Shown piece by piece: positions 71-17,246 of a DNA stretch of 64,000 nucleotides. Positions within the stretch are counted from its first letter, which is position 1. The number at the start of each line of letters is the position of its first letter. The notes under the pieces are model-generated. The model was given only the letters and a program-made list of their open reading frames with translations. It was not told the origin of the DNA and made no database searches. A program made the position numbers and the translations under genes. Origin of the DNA: a virus; IMG/VR virus record IMGVR_UViG_3300036828_000667, positions 49,839 through 113,838 of that record; one strand, given 5' to 3'.

Positions 71-140
71 AATTGTGCGGTTTGGCCTGCAGCGGAGCGG
101 ATAGGCTAGGTTCGGATAGGCAAGGAAAGGCGTGGTATGA
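71..140 (-). ncRNA. Pentamer-coded guide-like unit U1 (NNN-CC periods)
   Basis: Plus strand reads ggttt ggcct gcagc ggagc ggata ggcta ggttc ggata ggcaa ggaaa ggcgt ggtat. The minus strand ends in the shared ACCGCACAATT handle and has its own promoter at 151-179. Confidence 0.75.
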
Positions 141-150
141 ACAATCACTC

Positions 151-179
151 CCTTAGCCTAGCTCACAAAAGCTGTCAAG
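151..179 (-). promoter_or_regulatory. Sigma70-type promoter driving U1
   Basis: CTTGAC-N17-CTAAGG on the minus strand, about 10 nt before the unit. Confidence 0.6.
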
Positions 180-189
180 GTTCTTTTCG

Positions 190-714
190 ATGTACTTACC
201 ACCTTGGGTGAAGGTCGACATGATTGCACTGAAAAATAGAAAACGGTTATCACAGTTGGTCAGGATGCTAAGTTCTGGCCATCAAGGTGAAGCAATGGCA
301 GCCAGAGACGCTGTTCAAAAAATCTGTTCTTTTAACGATCTAGCAGATTTGATCGAGAGTGGTAGTGATTTTAAAAAAGCAGAATTGCAGTTCGTGTACG
401 ACTCAGGACATGAGGATGGATTCAAAAAAGGTTTTGAAAAAGGGCTTCAAGAAGGAAAACTCGGTAGTAATAGCTCACGTCCTCCTCCCAGTTCTCATAA
501 GAAGGGCGACATTTTCTTCGACATTGGCGATAAACCTGACATAATTAAAGAAAAGATACAATTTTGTCAAAAGCATAAAGATAGACTCAGAAAAGATAGG
601 GAAAAAGAATTCATCGCCAATATAGTTAATTGGACCACGGTTTTAAATAGACCTCTAACTCCAGGTCAAGAGAACTGGCTAAACGATATATACGCCAGAC
701 TAGGGGGTAAATAA
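190..714 (+). CDS. Hypothetical phage protein (GF..G repeat region)
   Basis: 174-aa ORF, first of a tightly packed plus-strand run; true start may be at 220. Confidence 0.65.
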   Translation: MYLPPWVKVDMIALKNRKRLSQLVRMLSSGHQGEAMAARDAVQKICSFNDLADLIESGSDFKKAELQFVYDSGHEDGFKKGFEKGLQEGKLGSNSSRPPPSSHKKGDIFFDIGDKPDIIKEKIQFCQKHKDRLRKDREKEFIANIVNWTTVLNRPLTPGQENWLNDIYARLGGK

Positions 715-715
715 T

Positions 716-901
716 ATGAAAACAATTACTACAAATGACGCACTTGATCTCACTCGTAAAAGAGCCTACGAGCTAATAGAAGAACACACACTTTCAATAC
801 CTTACAGTGAGCTTATACCCACAGAACAACTAGTAAGTCGTGTACTCATGGAACTAGTAGCTAAGTACTTAAAACAGGAACTGGGGAGGACTCCTAAATG
901 A
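716..901 (+). CDS. Hypothetical protein
   Basis: Abuts neighbours, overlapping stop/start with next ORF. Confidence 0.6.
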   Translation: MKTITTNDALDLTRKRAYELIEEHTLSIPYSELIPTEQLVSRVLMELVAKYLKQELGRTPK

Positions 902-1230
902 AGCTAGAGAAAGTCATATCAGAAGCCGTCGAGAACATCCTTACCAATAACTTCGAAATTATTGATAAGCAAATAGTCAGACTTGTAGAGAACGAAGTGA
1001 TGAAGGCCCTAGAACAACTTCTTAAGGATAGGATAAGAACTAAGGTAATAGAGATCATCGAAGAACATAGCCAAAGGATCATTGAGAGGTCCCAAGAAAT
1101 ACTTCTAGTATACGAAGGTGGGGATTCTGATCTCAAAGAGGTAAATAACGTAGCCGAAAAACATCTAGACCAAGTTGAGGCTGATATGAGAAATAAAGTA
1201 CAAAGAAAAAAGGGAACTACAGAGGAGTGA
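898..1230 (+). CDS. Hypothetical helical protein
   Basis: GGAGGA RBS, overlaps upstream ORF. Confidence 0.65.
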   Translation: MKLEKVISEAVENILTNNFEIIDKQIVRLVENEVMKALEQLLKDRIRTKVIEIIEEHSQRIIERSQEILLVYEGGDSDLKEVNNVAEKHLDQVEADMRNKVQRKKGTTEE

Positions 1231-1233
1231 CCC

Positions 1234-1473
1234 ATGCCTATGGGACCTGACGACCATCTGGTTGAAACAATCAAGAACGTCCTCTGGAAAGATGAAGAAT
1301 TACTGGATAGGGCTATTCATAAGATAATAGAAAAGAGAATACATTTCATACTAGAACAGCACATAAACAATGGTTTGTCATCTAGACATATTTCAGAAGT
1401 TCTAGATGAATACATAACTTACCATATCAAAAGAATTCTCAGTTCGACTTTGGAACTGGAGGGAAAGGAGTAG
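1234..1473 (+). CDS. Hypothetical protein
   Basis: GAGGAG RBS, operon packing. Confidence 0.6.
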   Translation: MPMGPDDHLVETIKNVLWKDEELLDRAIHKIIEKRIHFILEQHINNGLSSRHISEVLDEYITYHIKRILSSTLELEGKE

Positions 1474-1559
1474 TGGTTCACGATTTGGTCTTTTTGCCAT
1501 TATTTAAACAGTAGGGAGGTCTAGATGTTGGCCGGCCCCTTTGGTAGAGTAGAGGCGAT

Positions 1560-2033
1560 ATGACTATTTACACTATCTACCATGTTCCTAATATAAAAGT
1601 AGGAGCAACCGATAATTTAAAAACTAGAATGGCTAGATACAAGTCTAGATACAAGGAGGTTGAGATAGAAATACTCTTGAAAATGAGATTCGAACAAGTA
1701 CCAGAATATGCAAGATGGTATATAGTAGGAACTTATGAATGGATATTTGCTGATATGTATGGATACCCTAGAGGTTTTCATTACTATATCAGCAGATATA
1801 GTAATAGAGTAAAACAAAGTCCATATAGCACTTTAGAACAAATTAAGTCTAATTACGGGAAACAACATGCAAATGATTACTTTAATCAAATTACTGTAAC
1901 AAACGAAACACTATGGAAATTCCTATCGTTGCTTTTAAATCAACAAAGTTACATAGAGAGACTTGTCAAAGAGATATTCCCAAATTCTTCTCCTCAATCC
2001 TTTCCTCTGGCACTCTTTCTCTTCACCAGCTAG
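1560..2033 (+). CDS. GIY-YIG-like nuclease-related protein (paralog of 49846-50550)
   Basis: IYHVPNIKVGAT.NLK.R...Y and EW.FAD.YGY.RG.HY match IYHIPGVKVGCT.NLK.R and EW.WAD.LGY.RG.HY in 49846-50550. Confidence 0.5.
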   Translation: MTIYTIYHVPNIKVGATDNLKTRMARYKSRYKEVEIEILLKMRFEQVPEYARWYIVGTYEWIFADMYGYPRGFHYYISRYSNRVKQSPYSTLEQIKSNYGKQHANDYFNQITVTNETLWKFLSLLLNQQSYIERLVKEIFPNSSPQSFPLALFLFTS

Positions 2034-2539
2034 TTAAATCACCAGTTAGTTAAGTCAGTAAAAGACGAGGGGAGTATGAGGGGAGTTTTTCAATAGTTTG
2101 TCAATTCTACTTAGGTATAGGTTTATATCACACTATGTTACAAACTGTAAGAATGGGATATACTTTAGACACGACAAAAAGCCCCATTAGACTATGTCTA
2201 GGGGTTTATGGTCATTTGGGGGTTGTTTTTAGGATGTAAGGAGGTGCTGTTGTGGATAGCCTCTTGGTTTTATCAGGCGCCTGATAAAATTCCCTGGATT
2301 ACCTGCGGTGCACCACCGTAACCCAGTATGGTTAGGAGAATAGCTTCCCCCTGGAATACAGGGGCCTGCTCGTCTATTAAAGATCCACGGGCCAGACCGT
2401 CAGTCGCTGGATTTTTCTCACCGTGGTAGCAGCCATGGCAGTCGCCGTTAGGTCGGCCCCATGGCACCGCTGTAACTCGCGGGTAAACGCATCTTCCATA
2501 TTAGAAAACGAACTGCTAGTCAACATCACTTGGAGATAA

Positions 2540-2602
2540 AATTGTGCGGTATGGGATGCATGGGGCAGGTCCGGCAGGGTAAGCGTCGGGGTGGGGTGGA
2601 CA
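2540..2602 (-). ncRNA. Pentamer-coded guide-like unit U2
   Basis: 11 GG/GC-NNN periods on plus strand; minus strand ends ACCGCACAATT; promoter at 2609-2637. Confidence 0.7.
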
Positions 2603-2608
2603 AAGCTT

Positions 2609-2637
2609 CATTACTATCATTGCAATCCATTGTCAAG
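2609..2637 (-). promoter_or_regulatory. Sigma70-type promoter driving U2
   Basis: CTTGAC-N17-GTAATG on minus strand. Confidence 0.5.
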
Positions 2638-2682
2638 AAGTCTAAAATCAAGCCTCCCGTCCTCCCCTGGCTGGAGCATAGG

Positions 2683-2877
2683 ATGAAAAAAGGCCCATAT
2701 CGCAGAAGAACCCTTGTCAGAAAATACAGGTTTCATCCCTATGAGAATTTTGAGTCAGGTAAGGGATGGAACCTTCCCCATAACAGAAAAAGGGTAAAGA
2801 AACATCATGGTCCAGCACTAAATAAACTAGGTCAATTAAGACGTTTTTGGATTACTGTTACAAGAACATACAGATGA
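2683..2877 (+). CDS. Basic hypothetical protein (MKKGPYRR...)
   Basis: GGAG upstream of ATG 2683; the track ORF start at 2530 runs through U2 and is probably too long. Confidence 0.45.
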   Translation: MKKGPYRRRTLVRKYRFHPYENFESGKGWNLPHNRKRVKKHHGPALNKLGQLRRFWITVTRTYR

Positions 2878-3239
2878 AAGACCTTACCTATCTCGACAAA
2901 TACAGAATGCCTATCCCTGAGGTCTGCCTTGTAGGAAGTGGTACAGTCGACCTAAAGTTCAACGGAGCCTTTGCATTTGCCATAAAAGGTGTTAGTGTTG
3001 TGGTAATAGCAGGACGCGGTAAGGGATGGGATCACGTATCAGTCTCTTGTGAAAACAGAACTCCAACTTGGGAAGAAATGGAAACGGTCAAGAGGATGTT
3101 CTTCAAAGACGATGAAGTAGCCATGCAATTGCATGTAGCTGTTGAGGATCACATCAATATGCACCCTTATTGTCTTCATTTATGGCGCAGTTACAATAAG
3201 CTTAGGCCAATTCCACTTCCACCAAAAGGATTCGTGTAA
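2847..3239 (+). CDS. Conserved phage protein (GWDHVSVS/PTWEEM/HP.CLHLW family)
   Basis: Recognisable widespread phage motif set; likely start ATG 2874. Confidence 0.8.
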   Translation: MDYCYKNIQMKDLTYLDKYRMPIPEVCLVGSGTVDLKFNGAFAFAIKGVSVVVIAGRGKGWDHVSVSCENRTPTWEEMETVKRMFFKDDEVAMQLHVAVEDHINMHPYCLHLWRSYNKLRPIPLPPKGFV

Positions 3240-3493
3240 TGAAACGAGCAGATTTCGTTAGAGCCTACGCAAATCGTTCTGGACTATCAGATAAGTGGGC
3301 AAACATAGGGTTGATAGATAGACATGATGGCTGGGTATTTGTAGCTCTGCCTTGTGTATGTGGTGAAGATGGTTGTCAGGGATGGGCCATGCTCTCAGCT
3401 GAGCAAGTCTTACACCACTTACAATTCAATGCTCCTGATGGGCTACGTGAAGCCTATATGAAATCTGTTGAAGACGAGGAAGCAAAGACATAG
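3239..3493 (+). CDS. Hypothetical protein (C.CG...C.GW)
   Basis: Overlapping stop/start, Cys motif. Confidence 0.65.
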   Translation: MKRADFVRAYANRSGLSDKWANIGLIDRHDGWVFVALPCVCGEDGCQGWAMLSAEQVLHHLQFNAPDGLREAYMKSVEDEEAKT

Positions 3494-3505
3494 GCATGAA
3501 TTGAT

Positions 3506-3775
3506 ATGAAGTATAGGCATTACAAACTACCGCAAAGAGGATATAGACACGACTGGAATGAAGCCAGAAGAATTCACGTATTTCTTCTAAGATGTGAAGG
3601 ATTGTCATATGGAGAAATTGCATTACGTCTTGGTGTAACCAGACAAGCAGCTAGAGAAATGTATCGTAGAGCAGCCCATATGTTAATGTGGGCATGGCGA
3701 CATATACTACAACCTCATACAATGATAGACCCAGAGTGTAGACTAGAGGCAGAGGAACATGAGAGCGACGAATAA
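3506..3775 (+). CDS. HTH DNA-binding protein (sigma region-4-like)
   Basis: EGLSYGEIALRLGVTRQAARE helix-turn-helix. Confidence 0.7.
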   Translation: MKYRHYKLPQRGYRHDWNEARRIHVFLLRCEGLSYGEIALRLGVTRQAAREMYRRAAHMLMWAWRHILQPHTMIDPECRLEAEEHESDE

Positions 3776-3974
3776 CCGTGACTTCCACCCAGTACCGATT
3801 TTAGGTGGAGATCACTGTCCGAAGTGTGGTAACATCATGCAAAGGTACACTCATAACCCAAAGTGGAAGCCTCTCCCTGGCCGTGGCTTCTACAAACACT
3901 GGGATCGGTGCATAGACTGTCGGCGATATTACAATCCAGCTGATGCCTATGTTAAAGGAAGTAAAGATGAGTGA
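3759..3974 (+). CDS. Small zinc-ribbon protein
   Basis: CPKC...CIDC. Confidence 0.6.
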   Translation: MRATNNRDFHPVPILGGDHCPKCGNIMQRYTHNPKWKPLPGRGFYKHWDRCIDCRRYYNPADAYVKGSKDE

Positions 3975-4155
3975 TGATTGTAAAAAGCGTCAACTTGCAA
4001 TGCTCATGATTGATGAAATAGAAAAATCATTGGCACGTGGCACTAAACATTACAACAAGAGTGGGAAGTTGCTAAAGACACCTAAGGCTGTCTTAGAATG
4101 CTTACTTAAAGACGGAAGTGTTGAACTCAAGTATAGGAAAGAGAAGGATGAATAG
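3943..4155 (+). CDS. Hypothetical protein
   Basis: Packed ORF, likely start at MSDD. Confidence 0.55.
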   Translation: MPMLKEVKMSDDCKKRQLAMLMIDEIEKSLARGTKHYNKSGKLLKTPKAVLECLLKDGSVELKYRKEKDE

Positions 4156-4360
4156 TGTAGTCAAATTACTGATAGAAATAGCTGGGGAGGTTGGAAGTGC
4201 TGTTGTGTTTGTAGCTGGTCTAAGAGCCTTAGCACTTTCTGTAGTTACAGAAGTAACCTCAACTTCCCCAGAGGAACGTGGTAAGATAAATAATCTGATA
4301 ATCAAAGCAATGGTGTTTATCGCAATTGCTTTTTCATTTCTCATACATACAAGACTATAG
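4118..4360 (+). CDS. Small membrane protein
   Basis: Two hydrophobic segments. Confidence 0.55.
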   Translation: MLNSSIGKRRMNSVVKLLIEIAGEVGSAVVFVAGLRALALSVVTEVTSTSPEERGKINNLIIKAMVFIAIAFSFLIHTRL

Positions 4361-4368
4361 GAGTCGAA

Positions 4369-4749
4369 ATGAAGCTAGTTGGATGTGTGGTTCTCTTATC
4401 GGTAGTCTTCTCCCCAGTTGCCTATTCTGAATTTGTCCCTGGTAATGTGTTTATTGAAAGCTGTAACAACCCTAGTCCTGAACGTCAGGCAGCTTGTATA
4501 GGTTTTACGGCAGGGGTTACCGATAGCTATCTCAGGTCTGGTCAATTTTGCTTACCACCAAATGTTACTCCAAAAGAGATTTCAGATTTCACGAAGTACT
4601 ACATCAACAAAACTGTTTCAATCCGCAATCAATCAGCCCTCATGATGGTGCTGTATGCATTGAAATCACGGTGGCCGTGTGTTAATAGTGGACCACGGAT
4701 GGTCTTCCAACTACCTCCCCAGTTCCAGTTTCAATTCCGTGGGTTCTAA
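4369..4749 (+). CDS. Rap1a/Tai-like secreted immunity-family protein
   Basis: Signal peptide, GN.F...C...C.G+..GV.D, FC.P, and WPC ending. Confidence 0.7.
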   Translation: MKLVGCVVLLSVVFSPVAYSEFVPGNVFIESCNNPSPERQAACIGFTAGVTDSYLRSGQFCLPPNVTPKEISDFTKYYINKTVSIRNQSALMMVLYALKSRWPCVNSGPRMVFQLPPQFQFQFRGF

Positions 4750-4761
4750 AGGAACAGTACG

Positions 4762-5025
4762 ATGATGACAAAAATCTACCTGATCGACCCGGGGGCATCA
4801 GACGGTTATCCTGGTCTTGTAAAAGAAATTGTCAGAGAGAACATCGAAGCGTTCGATATTGTCGAGTACACGAATTTATATGGAAAACATGGGTATTACG
4901 TGTTTGACGGCATGGTAAAAGATGATATCGTTTACAGACGGGTGATTCGCGTCGCTAGAATTGCAGAAAAGAAGGAACAAAAGAATGGCCAAGGCGGTCA
5001 GACGACCTCCGAAGGGACACCATGA
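4762..5025 (+). CDS. Hypothetical protein
   Basis: Packed ORF with RBS. Confidence 0.55.
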   Translation: MMTKIYLIDPGASDGYPGLVKEIVRENIEAFDIVEYTNLYGKHGYYVFDGMVKDDIVYRRVIRVARIAEKKEQKNGQGGQTTSEGTP

Positions 5026-5224
5026 TGGCAGTGGAATAAAACTTGCTGTCAAATTTACACCGAAGCTTTTTAAAAGAATAAACGAACGGGCAACCAAACA
5101 TAACAAAAACTTTTCAGAAATCGTGAATGAGACTTGTGAATGTGGTCTATTATGCTTGGAAGAATCGGAGCGGGACGAGCCTAATTATAAGACAGTGGTG
5201 AGCCAACATGAAGATCGGGCCTAG
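4961..5224 (+). CDS. Possible ribbon-helix-helix protein
   Basis: LAVKFTPKLFKRINERA...NFSEIV pattern. Confidence 0.45.
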   Translation: MQKRRNKRMAKAVRRPPKGHHDGSGIKLAVKFTPKLFKRINERATKHNKNFSEIVNETCECGLLCLEESERDEPNYKTVVSQHEDRA

Positions 5225-5374
5225 GTTCTAAAGCTTCCTGGACAGCCTAGGTCTGACGGTGGAGGAGTACAGGACTATACCTTAGTGCCCCCAGTACTCC
5301 TCCACTACACTATAAGGAATCCCATAGCAAATGACGAAGGGGGTTCCTAAACTGTAACACTAGGAGTAACTAAC

Positions 5375-5965
5375 ATGATGAAGCAAACCTCGTTGGCAAG
5401 GCATATAACCGTAGAGATTCCTAGTGAGAACTCAGCTGATGTTGACTTTCTTCATGAGCTAGAAGAAGCTCATGACCACGACAATTTGAAAGACGTAGGT
5501 GCTGGTGTCGAGAAAGCATTCAAGGACAGAGTTGAAAAAGAGTTCTCAGGACAAGACATTACACCAAAGACACGGGCGTCCATCACAGACTTCTGTATAT
5601 ATTTAATGTCGATTGCAAAATTTTACGGTTATGATCTTTTACTAGGTGGGTTTATTACTACTGTTCACGAAGACATGTTTTCTGTACGAACTCAACCTAC
5701 CAAAGGGATTACGGCTCTCATAGAGTCAACGTTCACGTATTTTGACGATGAGGGAAACTATAAACTCACTGCCAATGGTTTCATGAGAAGGGATTGGGCA
5801 ACTGCCCCAGACGATCCAGTCAGCCGACGTAATCAGATCCTGAGAGATAACAACGATATTTTTCCCGGATTGCAATACAGTAATGCCAACACCAATAAGC
5901 TCCATATTCATATAGAAATAACAGGACAGTTCCCGCTATTAATCCTCCCAGTTACCTACCAATAA
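5375..5965 (+). CDS. Hypothetical protein; C-terminal domain duplicated in the next gene
   Basis: AGGAG RBS; FTYF...G...L.A.G.MR.DWAT motif. Confidence 0.7.
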   Translation: MMKQTSLARHITVEIPSENSADVDFLHELEEAHDHDNLKDVGAGVEKAFKDRVEKEFSGQDITPKTRASITDFCIYLMSIAKFYGYDLLLGGFITTVHEDMFSVRTQPTKGITALIESTFTYFDDEGNYKLTANGFMRRDWATAPDDPVSRRNQILRDNNDIFPGLQYSNANTNKLHIHIEITGQFPLLILPVTYQ

Positions 5966-5999
5966 ATTATAGGGGCTGGGAAGATGGGGGGATTATTGT

Positions 6000-6260
6000 A
6001 TGTCCAATGTAATCAACTTACCTATAATGGTAAGAGCGAGATTCTCTTATTTTAATACCAAAGGTATATTTCAATTATCAGCAGACGGTCATATGAGGCA
6101 AGATTGGGCTACTCACTCCAATCTGCCACGGCCTAGACGTACCCAAATCATCCAAGACAATAAAGGAATGCCAGGAATGCCTGGAAGGGCTTCCGCGTAT
6201 TTCATACATATTGTCACACAGGATAAGAAACGAACTCTCGTACTTCCGGAGACACCTTGA
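6000..6260 (+). CDS. Paralog of the C-terminal domain of 5375-5965
   Basis: FSYFNTKGIFQLSADGHMRQDWAT vs FTYFDDEGNYKLTANGFMRRDWAT. Confidence 0.7.
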   Translation: MSNVINLPIMVRARFSYFNTKGIFQLSADGHMRQDWATHSNLPRPRRTQIIQDNKGMPGMPGRASAYFIHIVTQDKKRTLVLPETP

Positions 6261-6320
6261 ACAGGGAGGAAAATCAGAACTCAACATGAACAACAAGCAG
6301 AAAACCGTAATCACCTATAG

Positions 6321-6599: not shown

Positions 6600-6607
6600 T
6601 AGAGATT

Positions 6608-6645
6608 AAGTCATCCTCTGTTTTTGAAATGACAGAGGATGACTT
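6608..6645. terminator. Stem-loop between a convergent gene and unit U3
   Basis: AAGTCATCCTCTGT...ACAGAGGATGACTT 14-bp inverted repeat. Confidence 0.7.
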
Positions 6646-6704
6646 GTGCGGTTTGGTTAGGAATGCAGTGGCTCGGCAGGGTTCGCTTCGGTTTGGTATG
6701 GTTC
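6644..6704 (-). ncRNA. Pentamer-coded guide-like unit U3
   Basis: 11 GG/GC-NNN periods on plus strand, ACCGCACAA handle, 3' hairpin, promoter at 6716-6744. Confidence 0.75.
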
Positions 6705-6715
6705 GAACATGCGGG

Positions 6716-6744
6716 ACGTAGCAGAACTTGACCGTCTTGTCAAA
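6716..6744 (-). promoter_or_regulatory. Sigma70-type promoter driving U3
   Basis: TTTGAC-N17-CTACGT on minus strand. Confidence 0.65.
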
Positions 6745-6754
6745 TGGGTGCAAA

Positions 6755-7345
6755 ATGTCCAAGAAGTTCTCAATATCAGTGGACCATAATGCATTAAGGC
6801 AATTTCCGTTTCTGGATCGACTCCAGAAACAACAATTCCCCATTTCAACCCTCAATGAAGTTATGTACGTTCTTGAAAATAGACCTGAAGGATTCAAAAT
6901 CGAGTTGGTTTATAGTGTATTGAAAGTGTCGTTAATTAACGTCAATAGAGACACCAATGACGACTACTTGGGATTGCCGAAGATTGAAGGTCAGTTGAAA
7001 GACCTGTGTGATGTGATCAGAGAGACCACGTCATATGGAACACGTGGGGGAGTCGACCCAAGGACACAAATATATTATAGTAGGAAGTCGTCTATTCTAC
7101 AGGGTAGTAACCTTAGTGATGATGCTCTGATAGCTCCTAATTATGTTTCTAATAGAGGTTTGAGAAAACGCCATCCTCTTGATCTTGTGTCCACAGAAGA
7201 GGTCGTTAAAAGAAGGGAACTTGCTAACCGACACTGGCAAGAACAGAAAAAAGAGCAACGAAGAAAACAACAGTCCAGTATCAACTCAAAAATCCGGAAT
7301 GCTCAGGACTTTTTGACAAGAAGCAATTTTGACAAGAAGCAATAA
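6755..7345 (+). CDS. Hypothetical protein; matched by unit U4
   Basis: Track ORF 6728-7345 with in-frame ATG at 6755. Confidence 0.7.
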   Translation: MSKKFSISVDHNALRQFPFLDRLQKQQFPISTLNEVMYVLENRPEGFKIELVYSVLKVSLINVNRDTNDDYLGLPKIEGQLKDLCDVIRETTSYGTRGGVDPRTQIYYSRKSSILQGSNLSDDALIAPNYVSNRGLRKRHPLDLVSTEEVVKRRELANRHWQEQKKEQRRKQQSSINSKIRNAQDFLTRSNFDKKQ

Positions 7346-7356
7346 TAATGTTAACC
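7328..7356 (+). promoter_or_regulatory. Sigma70-type promoter driving U4
   Basis: TTTGAC-N17-TTAACC(T). Confidence 0.55.
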
Positions 7357-7362
7357 TTCTTC

Positions 7363-7426
7363 GGCGAACCGGTCCAATCCGAACCGACCCTATCCCTACC
7401 GGACCCTTGCACAGCATACCGCACAT
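7363..7426 (+). ncRNA. Pentamer-coded guide-like unit U4
   Basis: 12 periods; decodes to EGNEDYLGL vs DTNDDYLGL in the upstream gene. Confidence 0.8.
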
Positions 7427-7429
7427 CTA

Positions 7430-7460
7430 CCCCTCAGGCTGTATTACACAGCCTGAGGGG
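7430..7460 (+). terminator. Intrinsic terminator after U4
   Basis: CCCCTCAGGCTGT...ACAGCCTGAGGGG followed by TTATTATT. Confidence 0.7.
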
Positions 7461-7483
7461 TTATTATTATTAGGAGGTTAGAG

Positions 7484-11063: not shown

Positions 11064-11064
11064 G

Positions 11065-11490
11065 ATGGTGAAGATACGTAATGTCGACCTGAGTGATCTA
11101 GTCGACCAATTCAAGGACTTCACAAAAGTCCTTGGACCCGAGGAGGTCAAAATCCTCTCTGATGCTGATCTCCTCCTACATGTTACCATACCTCATGACG
11201 AACCTGGGAAGCTAGCCTACTTAAGCAAGAGCGCTCAAATCCAATCTAAGCTCAATAACCTTCTTTCACGACTATCCTATATTTTTAATATGACCACTAT
11301 CGATAGAGATAGTTATTGGGGAAACTTGATAGAATCACAAGAAGTCGAAGGCCGAGAAAAACGATACATAGCCTTAACACGTGATCCTAAATTCAGAGAT
11401 TTAGAAGAGACCAAGTCAGCCTTGGAAGTCATACGGGATCACACTAGTAGTTTACTTTGGATACTCAAAACCATAGCCGGGAGGCTGTAA
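11065..11490 (+). CDS. Helical hypothetical protein (possibly UvsY-like)
   Basis: Size and coiled-coil pattern only. Confidence 0.6.
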   Translation: MVKIRNVDLSDLVDQFKDFTKVLGPEEVKILSDADLLLHVTIPHDEPGKLAYLSKSAQIQSKLNNLLSRLSYIFNMTTIDRDSYWGNLIESQEVEGREKRYIALTRDPKFRDLEETKSALEVIRDHTSSLLWILKTIAGRL

Positions 11491-11491
11491 A

Positions 11492-11773
11492 TTGGCAAAA
11501 GCAACAACGCGAGAACGTCAACCATTGACTAAGCGTGCGTTGCGTATTTATATAATAGTCAAACAGTACGGTCCCCCAGTAGGACTTCCTATGTCCGTAG
11601 TGGACATACAGAAATATATTCCAGAAATAACCGTTGATTGTATCAGTCCACGTATGCCAGAGCTTCGTGAAAAAAGATGGCTTCTGCGTATTGGAAAAGC
11701 ACCGCGTCCAAATCGAACTGGACGTTCGCAAAGCCAGTGGGTTTATAGAGTAATTAACGAGGATGAACTTTGA
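11492..11773 (+). CDS. Winged-helix-like DNA-binding protein
   Basis: ISPRMPELREK...R..RTGR....Y pattern. Confidence 0.6.
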   Translation: MAKATTRERQPLTKRALRIYIIVKQYGPPVGLPMSVVDIQKYIPEITVDCISPRMPELREKRWLLRIGKAPRPNRTGRSQSQWVYRVINEDEL

Positions 11774-11810
11774 GTGGCAACAGATGGACGTGTAGCTCAG
11801 CGGTAGCATC

Positions 11811-12338
11811 ATGGCAAAACACAATGAAGAAAATGATCTATGGTTCCTTAGCAAAATCGCAGATGGAACCATTTCTGTATCCGAAGACGGAGAGGTCTTC
11901 AACAACAAGACAGGTAGATATATAGGCGCTCAACAAGGAGCAGGTTACCTTAAGATTTCTATGGCAAAGAGAGTTGATGGAAAACTTGTTATTGTCCATA
12001 TGCAAATCCATAGGTTAGTATGGCTACATTTCAAAGGACCTATTCCTCAGGGACTAGAAGTCAATCACAAAGATTTAAACAAATCGAACCCACGATTGTC
12101 AAATCTAGATTTACAAACACCCAAAGGGAATGCTGAACATGCCACCTTAAATGGTGTTGACCGACGCTCAAAAACAGGAGGCCATAAAAACGCTAATGCC
12201 AAATTTACACGTGAACAAGTCGAGATGCTACGGAGACAATTCAAATCGAAAGAAACCACAGTTAAAGAAATAATGATAAACTATAGTGTTTCTAAGCCAG
12301 TTGTGTATTGGATGCTGGAAGGAAGGACCTATAAATAG
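11811..12338 (+). CDS. HNH homing endonuclease
   Basis: HRLVW..F.G.IP.GLEVNHKD.NK.N....NL. Confidence 0.9.
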   Translation: MAKHNEENDLWFLSKIADGTISVSEDGEVFNNKTGRYIGAQQGAGYLKISMAKRVDGKLVIVHMQIHRLVWLHFKGPIPQGLEVNHKDLNKSNPRLSNLDLQTPKGNAEHATLNGVDRRSKTGGHKNANAKFTREQVEMLRRQFKSKETTVKEIMINYSVSKPVVYWMLEGRTYK

Positions 12339-12363
12339 CTACTAACCTGTAGGATTTATAACA

Positions 12364-12693
12364 ATGGTAGAATTTGGAGCGTTCATTCGCAAAGAACGAG
12401 AGGCCAGAGATATTAGCTTACGAAAGATGGCCAAGAAGATTGGTGTAAGTGCAACCTATCTATCACAAGTGGAACTTGATAGGTTCCCACCACCAACTGA
12501 GGATAGGGTAAAGGCTATTGCCAAGATCATTGACTGTAATCCTGACTACCTACTGGCCAAAGCTGGACGGATCTCGACCGACATTTCCGACATCATTAAA
12601 CGTCGTCCGATCGAGCTTTCGATGCTTATTCGAGCCGCCAAGTACTTGAGTAACGATGACATTGCCCAATTGATTAATGCGGCGTCAGCGTAG
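12364..12693 (+). CDS. XRE-family HTH transcriptional regulator
   Basis: FGAFIRKERE...SLRKMA..IGVSATYLSQVE. Confidence 0.9.
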   Translation: MVEFGAFIRKEREARDISLRKMAKKIGVSATYLSQVELDRFPPPTEDRVKAIAKIIDCNPDYLLAKAGRISTDISDIIKRRPIELSMLIRAAKYLSNDDIAQLINAASA

Positions 12694-12787
12694 GAGCCTC
12701 ACTGGTAAGTCTTTTAGGCCTGGAGGCCCTACCACCTGGCCTGTCCATAATTCGCGTCAGTGGGCTTCCAACAAAGAGGAGAGGGTA

Positions 12788-12973
12788 ATGCGTTGCGATC
12801 GGTGTCAGGGAACAGGCTGGGATCGGGCAGGAGTACACCCTGTACTTGGGCCGCTCTTCGATTGCAACCATCCGTGTACTGAATGCGGCGGGTCAGGCAT
12901 CGCCCACTGTTGCGACGGCATCTGCGAACAGCCTTCAATTGACAAGTCTATAGATGACAAGCTAACATCTTGA
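12788..12973 (+). CDS. Small DnaJ-type zinc-finger protein
   Basis: CDRCQGTG...CTECGGSG; GGAGAGG RBS. Confidence 0.65.
   Translation: MRCDRCQGTGWDRAGVHPVLGPLFDCNHPCTECGGSGIAHCCDGICEQPSIDKSIDDKLTS
12938..12968 (+). promoter_or_regulatory. Sigma70-type promoter driving U5
   Basis: TTGACA-N18-TAACAT. Confidence 0.55.
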
Positions 12974-13046
12974 CGCCTACCGTACCACTCCGACGCCAAC
13001 CACACCGAGCCGGTCCATACCTTTCCAAACCAAACCACACTTTTTT
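12974..13046 (+). ncRNA. Pentamer-coded guide-like unit U5
   Basis: 13 periods ending ACCAAACCACAC-TTTTTT. Confidence 0.75.
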
Positions 13047-13224
13047 ATTACTACTAGATATTCAGGAAAGGCGAACATGAGAGGTTAGGTTAAACTAACT
13101 TCGTTCTTCCTTTAGCTCAGCTACAAACTTCTTAATCAGAGTTGTTAAGGTTGGAGTGTGCTTAGCTGGAAAGTTACCAGCAAGTACCTTGGCAATAGCA
13201 TACCGAATTACCTTAAACTCTTCC

Positions 13225-13476
13225 TCAGTTAGCTCCAACGTTATCACTAGGCACCTCGCCTTTCTTTATCACGCTAACCTTACTATCATCGATCTTCAGA
13301 GTAAACCTCTTATTATCCACAACTTCTCGCCATCTATTTTCCTCAATATAAGCACAGGCTTTAAGGTAGTCCGTCAAACAAAAAACATGAGTATGTATCT
13401 GTGACCAACACGGATGCTCACGGCATAAGTGTTCAATCTTGGCGGCTAACTCCCTGAGTGGTGATTGCATACCCAA
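13225..13476 (-). CDS. Hypothetical protein
   Basis: GGAGG near start, plausible composition. Confidence 0.5.
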   Translation of the reverse strand: MGMQSPLRELAAKIEHLCREHPCWSQIHTHVFCLTDYLKACAYIEENRWREVVDNKRFTLKIDDSKVSVIKKGEVPSDNVGAN

Positions 13477-13571
13477 CCTCCCTTTTGTGTGACCATAAAG
13501 TTACACTTAAATTGAATCTGATTCTGGGAATTGACCTGCCAAGGCTGATAGGCGAAAACTCATATTGCAAG

Positions 13572-13641
13572 GTCGAACCGCTGCCTTGCTTGCCAAACCG
13601 GGCCAAGCCGGCGCGGACCAAACCTCCGCACACCGCACAAT
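13572..13641 (+). ncRNA. Pentamer-coded guide-like unit U6
   Basis: 13 periods decoding to EALLKGKGGKSTA, the peptide encoded at 13756-13794. Confidence 0.9.
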
Positions 13642-13676
13642 GGGAGTAGTCAAATGGCTTGCAGACTACTCCCATT
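13639..13676 (+). terminator. Stem-loop 3' of U6
   Basis: AATGGGAGTAGTC...GACTACTCCCATT 13-bp stem. Confidence 0.65.
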
Positions 13677-13695
13677 AACACAGGAGTAAAACAAC

Positions 13696-14337
13696 ATGCT
13701 AATTTCAGTCACGATCTCCGGAATCCGACCTTTAATCCTCGACGCGTTTTCCGAGGAAGCGTTGCTTAAGGGGAAGGGAGGAAAGAGTACAGCCCAGCCC
13801 AAGGAACTGAGTCCCTTGGATCAAGCCAAGCGTAGGTTATACTATAATGGAGATGGTACCGACGTTCCTATATTCCCAGCAGACAACCTACTCAGCTGTA
13901 TCATCGCTGCCGGGCGGTTTATCAAGGTCGGGAAAAGGCAACTAACTACTCGCGACAGTACGACAGTAACTTCATTCCTACAGATATCAGAACTATATCT
14001 TCCCATTAGGTCGATAGATGGATGGCGAGTCGACTCCAGGAGCATCGTCAACCCGTCTACAAAAGGTCGTCACATATGCTACCGTCCCATCTTTGACGAC
14101 TGGGAGTTAGATTTCACGCTCGACATCGATACGAATGAAGCGAGCGACAGCTTGGTTAGACAGTTGATTGATAGAGCAGGTAGGTTTATCGGGATCGGGG
14201 TCATGCGGCCCGAAAGGAAGCGGCAGTATGGGCAATACGTGGTGCGCTGCTGGGATTGCCGTTCAGAACATGAAGAGCTTGACAACATACCAAAACTTGC
14301 TAAGAAAACTAAGACTAGATCGAAAGAACTAGTCTAA
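13696..14337 (+). CDS. Stand-alone RAMP / Cas7-like RNA-binding protein, candidate effector of the pentamer guides
   Basis: N-terminal strand ISGIRPLIL, PIFPADNLLSCI (cf. RAMP P.IPGSSLKG), C-terminal Gly-rich loop GIGVMRPERKRQYGQYVV; AGGAG RBS. Confidence 0.75.
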   Translation: MLISVTISGIRPLILDAFSEEALLKGKGGKSTAQPKELSPLDQAKRRLYYNGDGTDVPIFPADNLLSCIIAAGRFIKVGKRQLTTRDSTTVTSFLQISELYLPIRSIDGWRVDSRSIVNPSTKGRHICYRPIFDDWELDFTLDIDTNEASDSLVRQLIDRAGRFIGIGVMRPERKRQYGQYVVRCWDCRSEHEELDNIPKLAKKTKTRSKELV

Positions 14338-14467
14338 CACTGGTTCATCGCGGACCGTACCGGAGCGTGCCATGCCCGTCCCCGCCGAGCCCGACCAAAC
14401 CAGACCCAACCTACGCGGACCCAGCCTATCCTTAGCGTAGCACACCGCACAGTTAAGGCCAAAACCA

Positions 14468-14511
14468 GAAGGAAGGAGATACGGAAATGAAACCACGCAT
14501 CTCCTTCCTTC
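14468..14511 (+). terminator. Stem-loop 3' of unit A
   Basis: GAAGGAAGGAGAT...ATCTCCTTCCTTC. Confidence 0.6.
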
Positions 14512-15110
14512 AAACCCAAGTTTCGAACAATCCATGCCACTGCAAACCGCGCCAGCCCTATGCCTACCACTGTGAACCGCTCCACACCATTCTTTTATCA
14601 ATTATCAAGTCAACACTCCGAACCAGACCCCGCCTTACCCAACAGCACCCCACCAAACCGGACCGACCCACTCCAATGTGCACCTCAGCAGACCGAAGCA
14701 CACCATACTTTATCAATTGCCTTCCCGACCCGAGCTATGCCCAACCGACCCGACCCACTCCGGGCCGCACCCCTCCCTCCCATCCCGCAGCACACCATAC
14801 TTTATTTCATTACGACTCTCCGGCCCTACGCCAACCACACCAGCCCGGAGCGTGCCATACCGCACCATACTTTTATCATTTCAATGCGCACCGTCCCTCA
14901 CCGTGCCATCTCTCACCCGACCATACCATCCCTCCCCACCTCGGCCCGGACCCCGCCGATGCAAACCACACCATACTTTATCAATTTTCAGAACCATCCC
15001 GACCGTACCAGTGCGCGCCATTCCAATGCAGCCCTCGCCTCCGCATGTCAGGCCGCCCCGACCCATGCCGCACCAAACCACACTTTCTTTATCAACTAAG
15101 GAGAACCAGC

Positions 15111-15311
15111 ATGACCACACATCGTCCCACATTCGAAGACTGGCAGCTAGACTTCACTTTGGATTATAATGAAACTGAAATAGATGAAGGTACTATACGT
15201 AAGCTAATCGAAGTAGTAGCTGGAACGCACATAGGACTTGGCTCTATGCGCCCAGAACGACATGGACCCTATGGACAGTTTAAGATCAAGGAATGGACTC
15301 CACATTCTTAG
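15111..15311 (+). CDS. 66-aa truncated paralog of the RAMP protein C-terminus
   Basis: AAGGAG RBS; RPTFEDWQLDFTLD...IGLGSMRPERHGPYGQF aligns with RPIFDDWELDFTLD...IGIGVMRPERKRQYGQY. Confidence 0.8.
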   Translation: MTTHRPTFEDWQLDFTLDYNETEIDEGTIRKLIEVVAGTHIGLGSMRPERHGPYGQFKIKEWTPHS

Positions 15312-15598
15312 TCTTATCCATCTCTGCTTACCGTAGCCCTCATCACCGCACCCGTGAGCACCGACCCATGCCTGAGCCTACCTCAGCATACCCAACCGCA
15401 GCAACCCGGTGCGAACCAAACCACACTATTTTTTATACAATTTCAACTTACCGTCCCGGCCCGAGCCAGTCCATCGTGCGCCGACCCGTCGCTCCCCATA
15501 CCGCACTATACTTTATTCATTACCAACCATGCCATACCATGCCATTCCGGAACGCTGCCCTCCGGTCCACACCACACTTTCTTTAGGAGTTTAACCAG

Positions 15599-15844
15599 AT
15601 GGCAAAGGTAACTGGTATTGACGGTAAAAGCTTTATCAAAGGTCAACGTTTTGGTAAGCTAGTTGCGGTACGTCCACTAGGCTGGAGTAGTGACCGCAGC
15701 TGGTGTTGGCTATGTAAGTGTGATTGCGGCAATGAGACTATCTTAAGTGCTAACAGACTTCGAAGTGGTGAAGTTCAAGCTTGTGGATACGCTGTAACTA
15801 TAAAATCAGACACAAATGAGGAACACTGTAACGGACAGATATAA
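15599..15844 (+). CDS. N-terminal fragment of an HNH/AP2-type endonuclease family protein
   Basis: GQRFGKLV...W.CKCDCG......LRSG...CG; no nuclease domain. Confidence 0.65.
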   Translation: MAKVTGIDGKSFIKGQRFGKLVAVRPLGWSSDRSWCWLCKCDCGNETILSANRLRSGEVQACGYAVTIKSDTNEEHCNGQI

Positions 15845-16158
15845 TGACAAAGCCTACCATTACTGTCAAACAGAATCCCAATGAAGGTGACGTAGCTGAC
15901 TTCGTAGTTTGTCACCGTGTTTCTGTGCTACCTATCCCGTACGTGTCAGCTGAGATCCAACATTGCTCCAGATGTAACGAAAGGATATGGGTTGCAAACA
16001 CCTCTCCATCTAAGCCTCCTAAACTATGCTGGGAATGTTCAATTCCTCTAATTGCCAAAGACGACGATACAAGAATAATGATTACCGAACGGCAACGGGC
16101 AGAGGTTCAGAAGTATATGCAACTAGTCCAGAAACTCCAGGAGAAAAATGAAAAGTGA
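15844..16158 (+). CDS. Zinc-binding hypothetical protein
   Basis: CSRC...CWEC. Confidence 0.65.
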   Translation: MTKPTITVKQNPNEGDVADFVVCHRVSVLPIPYVSAEIQHCSRCNERIWVANTSPSKPPKLCWECSIPLIAKDDDTRIMITERQRAEVQKYMQLVQKLQEKNEK

Positions 16159-16408
16159 ACGTCATAAGATGCTCGAAATAGCCATGAGGTATCTCGACAG
16201 ACTATTCAACGGTAATGATAAAACAATAGAAAAAAGCACTGGAATTGTATTACTTACGTTCTCCTTTACTGACGAAGATGGTAATCATTGCGGTGATGAC
16301 AATGGGACTATCATCACCAATGGCATAGAAAGGGAACACATTGTAGGCATTATGGAAGCAATGCTAGAAAGACTGAAGGCAGACGATATACTTTTCAGAC
16401 GACATTAA
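16148..16408 (+). CDS. Hypothetical protein, paralog of the 7484-8080 C-terminal half
   Basis: LDRLFNG...TGIVLLTF.F...ITNG. Confidence 0.7.
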   Translation: MKSERHKMLEIAMRYLDRLFNGNDKTIEKSTGIVLLTFSFTDEDGNHCGDDNGTIITNGIEREHIVGIMEAMLERLKADDILFRRH

Positions 16409-16414
16409 AGACCT

Positions 16415-16969
16415 TTAAGTAGCATCATAGGCAAACTCACCAGCCAAACGTTTGGAAGCTTCCTCATACGCCTGAACCGCCTCTTCTACTGTGTTAAAGG
16501 TACCGATCTGAACGTCTTTATACATATGTTTTATTCTAGCCTCCCATTTTCCTGTGCTTTTCTTGTACCTTACTCCCTTAAAACCACTTGTATTATTTTT
16601 GAACATAGGACGATTGTAGCAATTCTGCTGTGTCGTCGCTGGACGAAGATTAGTCCATATATTGTTACCTGGATTTAGATCCTTATGATCTATCTCATAA
16701 TTAGGCCATTCTCCTGTCACATATAACCATATAATACGATGTACTTGATACATTCTGCCATTAACTTTTACCTGTATACGTCCTCCTTTCTTAATAGAAC
16801 CCGCCGTACTTCCAATAACAATCCTCCAGTTTAACGCCTCCTTCCATGTAAGTATACCAGTTTCAGGATCATAGTTAAAAATCTGCCTAACAAACTCAGC
16901 TGTTAGACTATTGTTATAGATACGAGTCCCCATTTTTACGCTCCTGTAGTGGCAGCCTTTACTGCCCAA
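16415..16969 (-). CDS. HNH endonuclease with C-terminal AP2 domain (likely start 16933)
   Basis: YDPETG, HRIIW, IDHKD....NN...NLR, NNTSGFKGV..W.A.I. Confidence 0.9.
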   Translation of the reverse strand: MGSKGCHYRSVKMGTRIYNNSLTAEFVRQIFNYDPETGILTWKEALNWRIVIGSTAGSIKKGGRIQVKVNGRMYQVHRIIWLYVTGEWPNYEIDHKDLNPGNNIWTNLRPATTQQNCYNRPMFKNNTSGFKGVRYKKSTGKWEARIKHMYKDVQIGTFNTVEEAVQAYEEASKRLAGEFAYDAT

Positions 16970-17139
16970 TGAACAGCCTCTTCATAAGCGGTTTGTGCTA
17001 AGGACGCTAACCTAGCATCTTTCGATTTCAGAGTTTCACATAGGTCGATCAACTCAGCAGACTTTTGCTTGATCTCATCAACTATAGTATCTGCACTTGG
17101 ATTAAATGCAGTCCGAACTCGTTGTTCACCGATTGTCAT
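16936..17139 (-). CDS. Acb2/Tad1-like helical-hairpin protein (possible nucleotide-signal sponge)
   Basis: R.ASLAQT.YEEA..WAVKA motif; AGGAG RBS. Confidence 0.55.
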   Translation of the reverse strand: MTIGEQRVRTAFNPSADTIVDEIKQKSAELIDLCETLKSKDARLASLAQTAYEEAVHWAVKAATTGA

Positions 17140-17150
17140 AGTACTCTCCT

Positions 17151-17181
17151 CTTGACAAGTTCACCTTGTTACACCTACGAT
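17151..17181 (+). promoter_or_regulatory. Sigma70-type promoter driving unit K
   Basis: CTTGACA-N18-TACGAT. Confidence 0.65.
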
Positions 17182-17186
17182 GATTA

Positions 17187-17246
17187 CTCGAACCGACCCC
17201 GTCCAGGCCACTCCTCCGCCCACCGACGCAAACCGCACAATTTTAT
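17187..17246 (+). ncRNA. Pentamer-coded guide-like unit K
   Basis: 10 periods ending ACCGCACAATTTT. Confidence 0.75.

What the first reader, a model, noticed from the sequence alone, without database searches (positions are those of the whole stretch)
71..17246. Solo units are self-contained transcription cassettes, and the CC-rich strand is the RNA
Six solo units have a TTGAC-N17/18-TA promoter about 5-12 nt upstream, always pointing along the CC strand regardless of genomic orientation: minus 151-179, 2609-2637 and 6716-6744; plus 7328-7356, 12938-12968 and 17151-17181. At the other end are hairpins (11-36, 6608-6645, 7430-7460, 13639-13676, 14468-14511, 18478-18510) or T-tracts. The last two decoded triplets are stereotyped (AAA/ACA/ATA/GCA, then GCA/ACA/ATA) and look like a fixed 3' handle. 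Simple microsatellites do not carry this architecture.
Basis: partly seen in the sequence, partly recalled or inferred. Interest (0 to 1): 0.8.

Follow-up and report, generated by a model that had tools for sequence, protein, structure and literature searches.

The report
C-strand VIPR guide-RNA genes in phage
The five-base-repeat units are stand-alone guide-RNA genes of a phage VIPR system, a CRISPR-like silencer first described in 2026. In this phage lineage they appear to be read from the C-rich strand, the reverse of the published G-rich guides.

Summary
The window is part of a 113.8-kb soil phage contig that carries about 29 tracts of (NNN-[C/G]-C)n with period 5, against about 1 in shuffles. 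Fourteen tracts have TTGAC[A/T]-N17/18-TA 32-41 nt upstream, always on the C-rich strand. All end in a stereotyped (A/G)CAC(A/C) handle followed by a hairpin or a T-rich tail.

The thing is known. These are vrRNA genes of a VIPR system (bioRxiv 10.64898/2026.04.26.720920). The 213-aa ORF at 13696-14337 is a Vipr protein: hhalign gives 98.5% to SUSP1 Vipr, and the fold is Cas7/Csm3-like.

- In at least 12 related loci a C-sense tract sits 13-30 nt before the vipr start codon, with only a ribosome-binding site between.
- G-type relatives have a G-sense tract in the same place, with a colinear tail.
- The C-type clade has replaced the residues that hold G1 and G2 in the published structure (H17 to D, D177 to V, W178 to M).

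No RNA data exist, so the strand is inferred, not shown. I rate it a non-canonical variant of a known system. This scan has met VIPR in more than 300 genomes and noted a C-strand reading once before.

The parts
11..178 (-). Solo vrRNA cassette 1. It has a -35 TTGACA at 173-178, a -10-like TAAGGG at 150-155, a tract at 79-138 and the handle GCACAATT at 71-78. A hairpin lies at 11-36.
   Evidence: The triplets of this tract match the adjacent gene just left of the window at 7 of 12 residues.
2536..2636 (-). Solo vrRNA cassette 2. It has a -35 at 2631-2636, a -10-like TAATGA 17 nt on and a tract at 2548-2602. The handle plus T-rich tail GCACAATTTTAT lies at 2536-2547.
6608..6743 (-). Solo vrRNA cassette 3. 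It has a -35 at 6738-6743, a tract at 6650-6704 and the handle GCACA at 6645-6649. A hairpin lies at 6608-6645.
7313..7471 (+). Solo vrRNA cassette 4. It has tandem -35 boxes at 7313 and 7329 and a tract at 7361-7420. The handle GCACA lies at 7421-7425. A hairpin at 7429-7461 is followed by a T-rich run.
   Evidence: One search lists the hairpin as the best terminator-like site on the plus strand.
12939..13050 (+). Solo vrRNA cassette 5. It has the promoter TTGACA-N18-TAACAT and a tract at 12972-13036. It ends in ACAC plus a T6 tail.
13575..13676 (+). vrRNA unit in the vipr leader. The tract and handle lie at 13575-13639 and a hairpin at 13639-13676. The triplets spell EALLKGKGGKSTA, which are residues of the phage's own Vipr.
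   Evidence: The position matches the leader unit of at least 12 related loci.
13696..14337 (+). vipr gene, 213 aa. It encodes a single-RRM RAMP with the G-loop GIGVMRPERKRQYGQY.
   Evidence: It matches phrog_4652. hhalign gives 98.5% probability to SUSP1 Vipr. The AlphaFold model has pLDDT 82.5 and matches Csm3/Cas7 chains at E about 3e-6.
14347..15590 (+). Downstream vrRNA array of about 11 units. The units are separated by (A/G)CACC-ATACTTTATCAATT-like T-rich tails. The first unit (14347-14446) spells the Vipr G-loop and is followed by a hairpin at 14468-14511.
15111..15311 (+). A 66-aa paralog of the Vipr C-terminal third, with G-loop GLGSMRPERHGPYGQF. It lies inside the array and has its own AAGGAG ribosome-binding site.
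   Evidence: phrog_4652, E 1.9e-9.
17152..17246 (+). Solo vrRNA cassette 6. It has the promoter TTGACA-N18-TACGAT and a tract at 17190-17234. It ends in GCACAATTTTAT at 17235-17246.
17816..18510 (+). They comprise short tracts at 17816-17906 and a 26-pentamer tract at 18320-18449. The latter ends in the handle ACAGCACACAATT and is followed by a hairpin at 18478-18510.

Best explanation
The solo units are genes for VIPR guide RNAs (vrRNAs).

Proposed working:
1. Each unit is transcribed from its own sigma-70-type promoter along the C-rich strand.
2. This gives an RNA of about 60-140 nt made of 8-26 pentamers of three variable bases plus a fixed [C>G]-C.
3. The RNA ends in a stereotyped (A/G)CAC(A/C) handle and a hairpin or U-rich tail.

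The rest is by homology with the published system. Vipr protomers (gene at 13696-14337) would bind one per pentamer, sequester the fixed bases and present the variable bases. These pair with double-stranded target DNA in register with codons, so the complex silences the homologous genes of rival phages, including rival vipr genes.

What differs from the published systems:
- the fixed letters are C-based and sit on the vipr-sense strand;
- three rather than two positions per pentamer are free;
- guides are scattered over at least 50 kb, often next to the phage's own recoded copy of the gene they spell.

Shown here: the sequence architecture, the homology of the protein, the comparative layout and the residue changes.
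Inferred: transcription strand, RNA ends, protein binding, target silencing.
For: Identity as VIPR:
- hhalign of the protein family against SUSP1 Vipr gives 98.5% probability, E 1.6e-15.
- The fold matches Cas7/Csm3.
- The layout is one unit upstream and an array downstream of vipr, as in SUSP1 (preprint read).
- Triplets of 8 units match a gene within about 400 bp as their best genome-wide hit, in codon register.

Strand:
1. 14 tracts have TTGAC[AT] 32-41 nt upstream in the C sense, with TA at +17/18. No such pattern exists in the other sense.
2. There is a terminator at 7429-7461 in the C sense. The paralogous tail hairpins at genome 40187 and 40735 differ by one compensatory change and two changes that keep G:U pairs only in the C sense.
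3. In at least 12 related C-type loci the tract ends 13-30 nt before the vipr ATG, with only an RBS between. L091 and L093 have TTG(T/A)GC-N17-TATAAA just before that tract.
4. G-type relatives of about 40% identity (L023, L075) have a G-sense tract in exactly that place. Their tail GG-ATATTTTATTGATT is colinear with CC-ATACTTTATCAATT here.
5. On the vipr strand, loci with the G-loop V-M or V-L carry CC period-5 tracts (15 of 16 classified). About 105 loci with D+aromatic carry GG, GC or GT, and never CC.
6. The published contacts of G1 and G2 (H17, D177, W178) align to D16, V169 and M170 here, while R138 and R179 are kept.
7. The V-M clade is monophyletic (support 0.92). The intermediate L010 (S-M, fixed [C/G]C) lies just outside it.
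Against: - No RNA data exist for this phage or any C-type relative, so neither the strand nor discrete ends are shown.
- At the DNA level the motif NNN-S-C is the reverse complement of G-S-NNN. The first preprint lists 'NNNGG' repeats among non-canonical vrRNAs, and that may be this clade read on the other strand.
- Position 3 is A-enriched (44%), reminiscent of NNACC in SUSP1 DNA, where the RNA is the G strand.
- Three solo units (79-138, 2548-2602, 6650-6704) are antisense to the surrounding plus-strand genes, so G-sense copies are probably transcribed within mRNAs.
- The -10 boxes are poor, and most hairpins lack a U-tract.
- The residue switch is a single evolutionary event, so the correlation with tract type has an effective sample of about one.
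- No natural target was found.
Confidence: 0.78

Rival explanations
1. Canonical polarity. The functional vrRNA is the G-rich strand, a relaxed 'NNNGG' variant of GGY/NN. It would carry a conserved 5' handle (AAUUGUGC). The TTGAC boxes would be something other than its promoter, for example promoters of antisense regulators or part of a 3' element.
For: - Every experimentally tested VIPR uses G-based guides.
- The first preprint lists NNNGG repeats.
- G at the outer fixed position is 97% conserved when read in the G sense.
- Three solo units would then be co-directional with their neighbouring genes.
Against: - The arrays would run antisense to vipr in this clade only, while G-type relatives keep them co-directional.
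- The leader tract would sit antisense between a promoter and the vipr RBS in at least 12 loci.
- The conserved handle and tail would flip to the 5' end, although they are colinear with the 3' tail of G-type relatives.
- The residues that read G1 and G2 are lost exactly in this clade.
Confidence: 0.15
2. Self-regulation rather than warfare. The guides act on the phage's own adjacent genes, giving timed repression or autoregulation of vipr, instead of acting on rival phages.
For: - Eight units have their best genome-wide match in a gene within about 400 bp.
- By the published first-two-bases rule, 4-6 of them match their own gene at 79-88%, around the 80% threshold used in the preprint.
- Both units flanking vipr spell Vipr itself, and the phage's own Vipr is the closest of 95 homologs.
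Against: - The mismatches look selected. 6 of the 16 same-residue codon pairs at Leu, Ser or Arg in the 8 guide-gene pairs use the other codon block, and these are all the synonymous pairs that change the first two bases.
- Third bases agree less often than chance, 16 against 27.9 expected, P about 0.001. This is what escape from one's own guide would look like.
- The preprints report no self-targeting, and report guides aimed at rival vipr genes.
- A trans-acting RNP needs no adjacency.
Confidence: 0.15
3. DNA-level elements, not RNA genes. The phased CC/GG tracts would be protein-binding arrays, origins, packaging sites or G-quadruplex/i-motif formers.
For: The phasing of 5 bp is half a helical turn, and (GGNNN)n could form two-tetrad quadruplexes. 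This is inference only.
Against: - The tracts co-occur with a Vipr homolog across more than 100 loci.
- They have promoter, handle and tail architecture.
- The variable triplets carry codon-register information from genes.
- In the published systems such tracts are expressed and co-purify with Vipr.
Confidence: 0.02

Closest known systems
VIPR type II system of Escherichia phage SUSP1 and a Pseudomonas fulva prophage (bioRxiv 10.64898/2026.04.26.720920 and .720927)
   Same: - A lone single-RRM RAMP (Vipr), homologous at 98.5% hhalign probability.
- Guide RNAs of about 100 nt made of 5-nt repeats that alternate fixed and variable letters.
- Stereotyped last repeats and a tail.
- One guide upstream and an array downstream of vipr.
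- Guide information in register with codons of phage genes, and guides aimed at vipr genes.
   Different: - The fixed letters are [C>G]-C on the vipr-sense strand instead of G-G-Y.
- Three positions rather than two are free.
- The G1/G2 contact residues H17, D177 and W178 are D, V and M.
- The tail is a short handle plus a simple hairpin or T-rich run, not a pseudoknot.
- About 17 guides are scattered over at least 50 kb with their own promoters.
- Several guides match the phage's own adjacent genes at about 80-88% by the published rule.
Non-canonical VIPR repeat units. NNNGG, YNNNG and NNNNG come from 10.64898/2026.04.26.720920 (methods). GAC/NN, CAC/NN, WGT/NN and TGH/NN come from 10.64898/2026.10.21.760802.
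   Same: They are 5-nt periodic guides beside Vipr-like folds with fixed letters other than GGY. The (NNNGC)n relatives found here (L059, L106, L123) fit YNNNG.
   Different: No C-C or [C/G]-C dinucleotide motif with three free positions is named in the text I could read. The figures and tables are not held, so I cannot exclude that this clade is in them, possibly as 'NNNGG' on the other strand.
Solo or orphan vrRNAs (bioRxiv 10.64898/2026.10.15.759431)
   Same: They are vrRNA genes standing away from vipr with their own regulatory context, and many are aimed at vipr or at vrRNAs of rivals.
   Different: There 'solo' means carried by elements that lack vipr (satellites, vipr-null phages). Here the phage has vipr, and the solo guides are extra copies dispersed through its early-gene region.
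Class 1 CRISPR Cas7-crRNA backbone (Csm3, Cmr4, Cas7, Csf2)
   Same: The RAMP fold (Foldseek E about 3e-6 to Csm3). One protomer binds per fixed number of guide nucleotides, with bases flipped out at a regular period.
   Different: - The period is 5, not 6.
- There are no direct repeats or acquired spacers, and no cas1/cas2, Cas5, Cas6 or large subunit.
- The guide is punctuated every pentamer.
Phage homing-endonuclease genes beside an immune allele (marker exclusion in T-even phages). This is a functional analogy only.
   Same: A weapon gene sits next to the phage's own copy of its target, and that copy is protected by sequence differences. The pair can spread as a linked module in co-infection.
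   Different: Here the weapon is a guide RNA for a DNA-binding silencer, not a nuclease. The linkage and the immunity are inferred from sequence only.

Membership tests
VIPR system (Vipr + vrRNA) | A Vipr protein: a small stand-alone RAMP with one RRM, a G-loop and a thumb, homologous to SUSP1 Vipr. | tested here: met
   hhalign gives 98.5%, E 1.6e-15, over residues 2-185. The model has pLDDT 82.5 and matches Csm3/Cas7 chains. There are 95 homologs and more than 150 related loci.
VIPR system (Vipr + vrRNA) | Non-coding tracts of tandem 5-nt repeats with fixed and hypervariable positions, flanking vipr. | tested here: met
   Period-5 tracts lie upstream (13575-13637) and downstream (14347-15590) of vipr. 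Positions 4-5 are fixed (C/G 98%, C 97%) and positions 1-3 are variable.
VIPR system (Vipr + vrRNA) | The fixed motif is G-G-Y on the transcribed strand. | tested here: not met
   On the vipr-sense strand the fixed letters are [C>G]-C. On the opposite strand they read G-[G>C], but the following base is a pyrimidine in only about 60%. G-type relatives show 80-95% there.
VIPR system (Vipr + vrRNA) | An invariable 3' tail after the repeat tract. | tested here: met
   There is a stereotyped (A/G)CAC(A/C) handle plus a T-rich tail or hairpin at the C-sense 3' end. It is colinear with the tail of G-type relatives. No pseudoknot was sought.
VIPR system (Vipr + vrRNA) | The tracts are expressed as discrete small RNAs that bind Vipr. 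| not testable with these tools
   No RNA run holds this DNA.
VIPR system (Vipr + vrRNA) | Variable positions specify DNA targets with a 3-nt target period (skip rule), mostly in genes of rival elements. | tested here: inconclusive
   Codon-register matches to the phage's own adjacent genes (8 units) show a 3-nt target period. No external target was found, so neither the pairing rule nor the real targets are established.
CRISPR-Cas | An array of identical direct repeats with acquired spacers, plus adaptation genes. | tested here: not met
   There are no long direct repeats, no cas1/cas2 among neighbouring ORFs and no Rfam CRISPR repeat family.

The most novel reading that the evidence does not exclude
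This lineage would be a mirror-type VIPR with three linked properties.
- The guide is anchored by C-C rather than G-G-Y, after a switch in three Vipr contact residues.
- The guide reads all three bases of each target codon, or at least the wobble base.
- The phage protects its own genes by synonymous recoding, and each solo guide travels with the resistant allele next to it, as a selfish 'guide plus immune allele' module that excludes rival alleles in co-infection.
Probability: 0.25. Interest if true: 0.8.

Novelty: new variant of a known kind. Interest (0 to 1): 0.5.

Why it matters
VIPR was described only in 2026, and its programmable code is defined by G-G-Y anchors and two read bases per repeat.

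A natural lineage that anchors the guide with C-C, frees a third base and shows which protein residues changed with the anchor would have three uses:
- It would show how the code can be re-specified.
- It would widen the set of programmable scaffolds.
- It would warn that strand calls made by searching for GG repeats can be wrong.

The dispersed guides beside recoded own genes also offer a testable picture of allele-level competition between phages.

If small-RNA sequencing shows the G strand instead, this is simply one more non-canonical VIPR locus.

Tried and rejected
- Rfam and tRNA scan: nothing.
- INPHARED phages: no DNA relatives, and only two distant Gordonia phage protein hits.
- RNA evidence: no RNA holder is listed, and only two soil-metagenome DNA runs hold the stretch.
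- Supplementary files of the preprint are not held, so I could not see whether this clade is among its seven types.
- Target hunting: an all-against-all scan of 196 units against 1.68 Mb of related loci under three pairing rules gave no match of 0.9 or more, and no rule stood out.
- Four first-two-bases patterns of 9-10 codons were scanned in IMG/VR. Three gave no hit. One gave five hits that do not extend beyond the seed and are chance.
- Comparing folding energies of the two strands downstream of units was not decisive, because G-rich neighbours fold better anyway.
- The generic promoter/terminator scan is barely above shuffles (51 against 37 promoters, 17 against 17 terminators). The position-specific test carries the argument.
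- I first considered ring-shaped RNA-binding proteins (TRAP-like), Rho or CsrA decoys and pentanucleotide decoding by ribosomes. All were dropped once the Vipr homology and the preprints were found.
- The long ORF 14487-15311 over the array is an artefact of the C-rich frame.


Full report
**What is there.**
- The window is the right-hand 64 kb of a single 113,838-bp contig of 43% G+C. The contig has phage-type genes: HNH endonucleases, Cro/CI-type regulators and many small ORFs.
- A scan for CC or GG recurring every 5 nt finds 33 runs in the contig, against 0-5 in shuffles.
- After merging there are about 29 tracts of (NNN-[C/G]-C)n with 8-26 pentamers each.
- Positions 4 and 5 are fixed (C 79% / G 19%, then C 97%). 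Positions 1-3 vary.
- Read along the C-rich strand, every tract ends in stereotyped pentamers and a handle. The handle is (A/G)CACA followed by a hairpin or AUUUUAU, or (A/G)CACC-ATACTTTATCAATT inside the array at 14347-15590.

- The six cassettes lie where stated, to within 1 nt.
- Fourteen tracts in the contig have TTGAC[A/T] 32-41 nt upstream of the first pentamer on the C-rich strand, with TA 17 or 18 nt after the hexamer.
- Such a hexamer occurs about once per 1,360 nt per strand, so a hit in a 10-nt window has a prior of under 1% per unit.
- In the opposite sense there are three hits at scattered distances, about what chance gives.
- All the hairpins exist. One, 7429-7461 plus a T-rich run, is a good intrinsic terminator in the C sense. 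The others lack a clear U-tract, and three cassettes have only a T-rich tail.

**What it is.**
- The ORF at 13696-14337 matches only phrog_4652, of unknown function, and has a RAMP-like glycine-rich loop.
- A literature search found the 2026 preprint that describes VIPR systems. These consist of a lone ancestral RAMP (Vipr) and vrRNAs built of YNNGG repeats followed by a 3' tail. One Vipr binds per repeat. The variable bases pair with double-stranded DNA while skipping every third target base, usually the codon wobble. The targets are rival phages, satellites and other VIPR systems.
- The family of the ORF aligns to SUSP1 Vipr with 98.5% probability. Its model (pLDDT 82.5) matches Csm3 and Cas7 chains.
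- The layout is one unit in the vipr leader and an array downstream, the same as in SUSP1.
- Earlier first-reader notes on this genome said that the triplets 'decode' to the phage's own proteins. I checked this. Eight units have their best genome-wide peptide match in a gene within about 400 bp. These include 13/13 residues (12/12 in the genome-wide scan) and 17/20 residues of Vipr itself. This is the codon-register signature of VIPR guides.
- The thing is therefore a VIPR system, and the solo units are vrRNA genes.

**Which strand is the RNA.** This is the substance of the finding, and it contradicts the published G-based guides. No RNA run holds this DNA, so I used comparative evidence.
- I fetched 77 viral and 80 metagenomic loci that encode relatives of this Vipr, each oriented with vipr on the plus strand.
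- In relatives of about 40% identity the G-sense of the tracts runs with vipr, and the base after GG is a pyrimidine in 80-95%. This is the canonical motif.
- In the closest relatives (50-66% identity) and in L010, the C-sense runs with vipr and the third position is free.
- The architecture is otherwise identical. G-type loci L023 and L075 have promoter, G-sense tract, ribosome-binding site, then vipr. At least 12 C-type loci have a C-sense tract ending 13-30 nt before the vipr ATG, with only the ribosome-binding site between.
- L091 and L093 carry TTG(T/A)GC-N17-TATAAA directly before that tract. The C-sense tract is therefore part of the vipr transcript in this clade.
- The tails are colinear: GG-ATATTTTATTGATT in L023 and L025, against CC-ATACTTTATCAATT here. 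The C-type L010 shares the tail CCAATCCAAGG with (NNNGC)n relatives, whose arrays end in a plus-strand terminator.

**The protein changes with the tract.**
- The cryo-EM preprint reports that G1 is read by H17 and D177, G2 by R138 and W178, and Y3 by a pocket that includes R179. These residues are present in SUSP1 Vipr.
- In the alignment they correspond to N/H, D, R, F/Y/W and R in all G-type and GC-type relatives. In this phage and its clade they are D16, V169, R130, M170 and R171. L010 has S-M.
- On the vipr strand, 15 of 16 classifiable V-M or V-L loci carry CC tracts. About 105 D+aromatic loci carry GG, GC or GT tracts, and none carries CC.
- The V-M clade is monophyletic (support 0.92), with L010 next to it. 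This is one evolutionary switch, not many independent ones.
- The series GGYNN, then G-C-NNN, then [C/G]-C-NNN, then C-C-NNN gives a stepwise path in which the first fixed position loses its G-specific contacts.
- Together with the promoters and terminators, I put the C-sense reading at about 0.8.

**Caveats.**
- At the DNA level the motif is the reverse complement of G-S-NNN, and the preprint lists 'NNNGG' repeats. I could not see its figures or tables.
- Three of the six solo units in the window lie antisense within plus-strand gene clusters, so G-sense copies probably exist inside mRNAs.
- The -10 boxes are weak.

**How it probably works.**
- By homology, Vipr coats each vrRNA one protomer per pentamer, hides the fixed bases and presents the variable ones to duplex DNA. 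It then represses transcription of matching genes in co-infecting relatives. These steps are inferred from the preprints, not tested here.
- Two features point to selection against hitting the phage's own genes. First, 6 of the 16 same-residue codon pairs at Leu, Ser or Arg in the 8 guide-gene pairs use the other codon block. These 6 are all the synonymous pairs that change the first two bases.
- Second, among 70 codon pairs with the same residue and the same first two bases, the third base is identical in 16. Independent codon choice would give 27.9, P about 0.001, a post-hoc test.
- The second point hints that the third base is read in this clade, unlike the published skip rule.
- I could not find external targets to settle the rule.

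**Novelty.**
- VIPR, solo vrRNAs, guides aimed at vipr and non-canonical fixed motifs are all in 2026 preprints.
- This scan has met VIPR in more than 300 genomes. It noted a C-strand reading in another soil phage and a guide beside a resistant allele elsewhere.
- I rate it a new variant of a known kind, of moderate interest.

Noticed in passing
window 15111-15311 (+): A 66-aa ORF with its own AAGGAG ribosome-binding site lies inside the vrRNA array. It is a paralog of the C-terminal third of Vipr. Its G-loop reads S-M, as in the basal relative L010, not V-M as in the resident Vipr. It may be a remnant of an exchanged VIPR locus or a filament-capping fragment.
   Followed up: partly
genome-wide; in the window, 13575-13637 against 13756-13794 and 14347-14446 against 14188-14247: Guide triplets and the phage's own adjacent genes agree at the third codon base less often than independent codon choice predicts (16 of 70 against 27.9, P about 0.001). 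6 of the 16 same-residue Leu, Ser or Arg codon pairs use the other codon block. It looks like recoding to escape one's own guides.
   Followed up: partly
window 7311-7343: A perfect tandem duplication of the 16-bp unit TTTTGACAAGAAGCAA gives cassette 4 two -35 boxes 16 bp apart.
   Followed up: no
L093:3950-4070 and L091:4620-4700: In two AT-rich relatives, a C-sense vrRNA tract sits between two conserved coding stretches of a zinc-finger (primase-like) gene downstream of the array. It looks inserted within or between ORFs.
   Followed up: no
L059:10470-10640, L106:2530-3200, L123:6310-6570: A third tract type, (NNNGC)n, runs with vipr and has the tail CCAATCCAAGG followed by a terminator. It occurs in relatives that keep the D+aromatic G-loop, and it probably corresponds to the preprint's YNNNG repeats.
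   Followed up: partly
window 12364-12973 and 15599-16969: The genes flanking the VIPR locus are candidates for the accessory (vap) role. They include an HTH_3 regulator (12364-12693), a DnaJ-type zinc-finger protein (12677-12973), a short HNH-related ORF (15599-15844) and a full HNH-AP2 endonuclease on the minus strand (16415-16969).
   Followed up: no
window 14487-15311 (+): A 274-aa open frame spans the array. It is an artefact of the C-rich, stop-poor tract and should not be annotated as a gene.
   Followed up: yes
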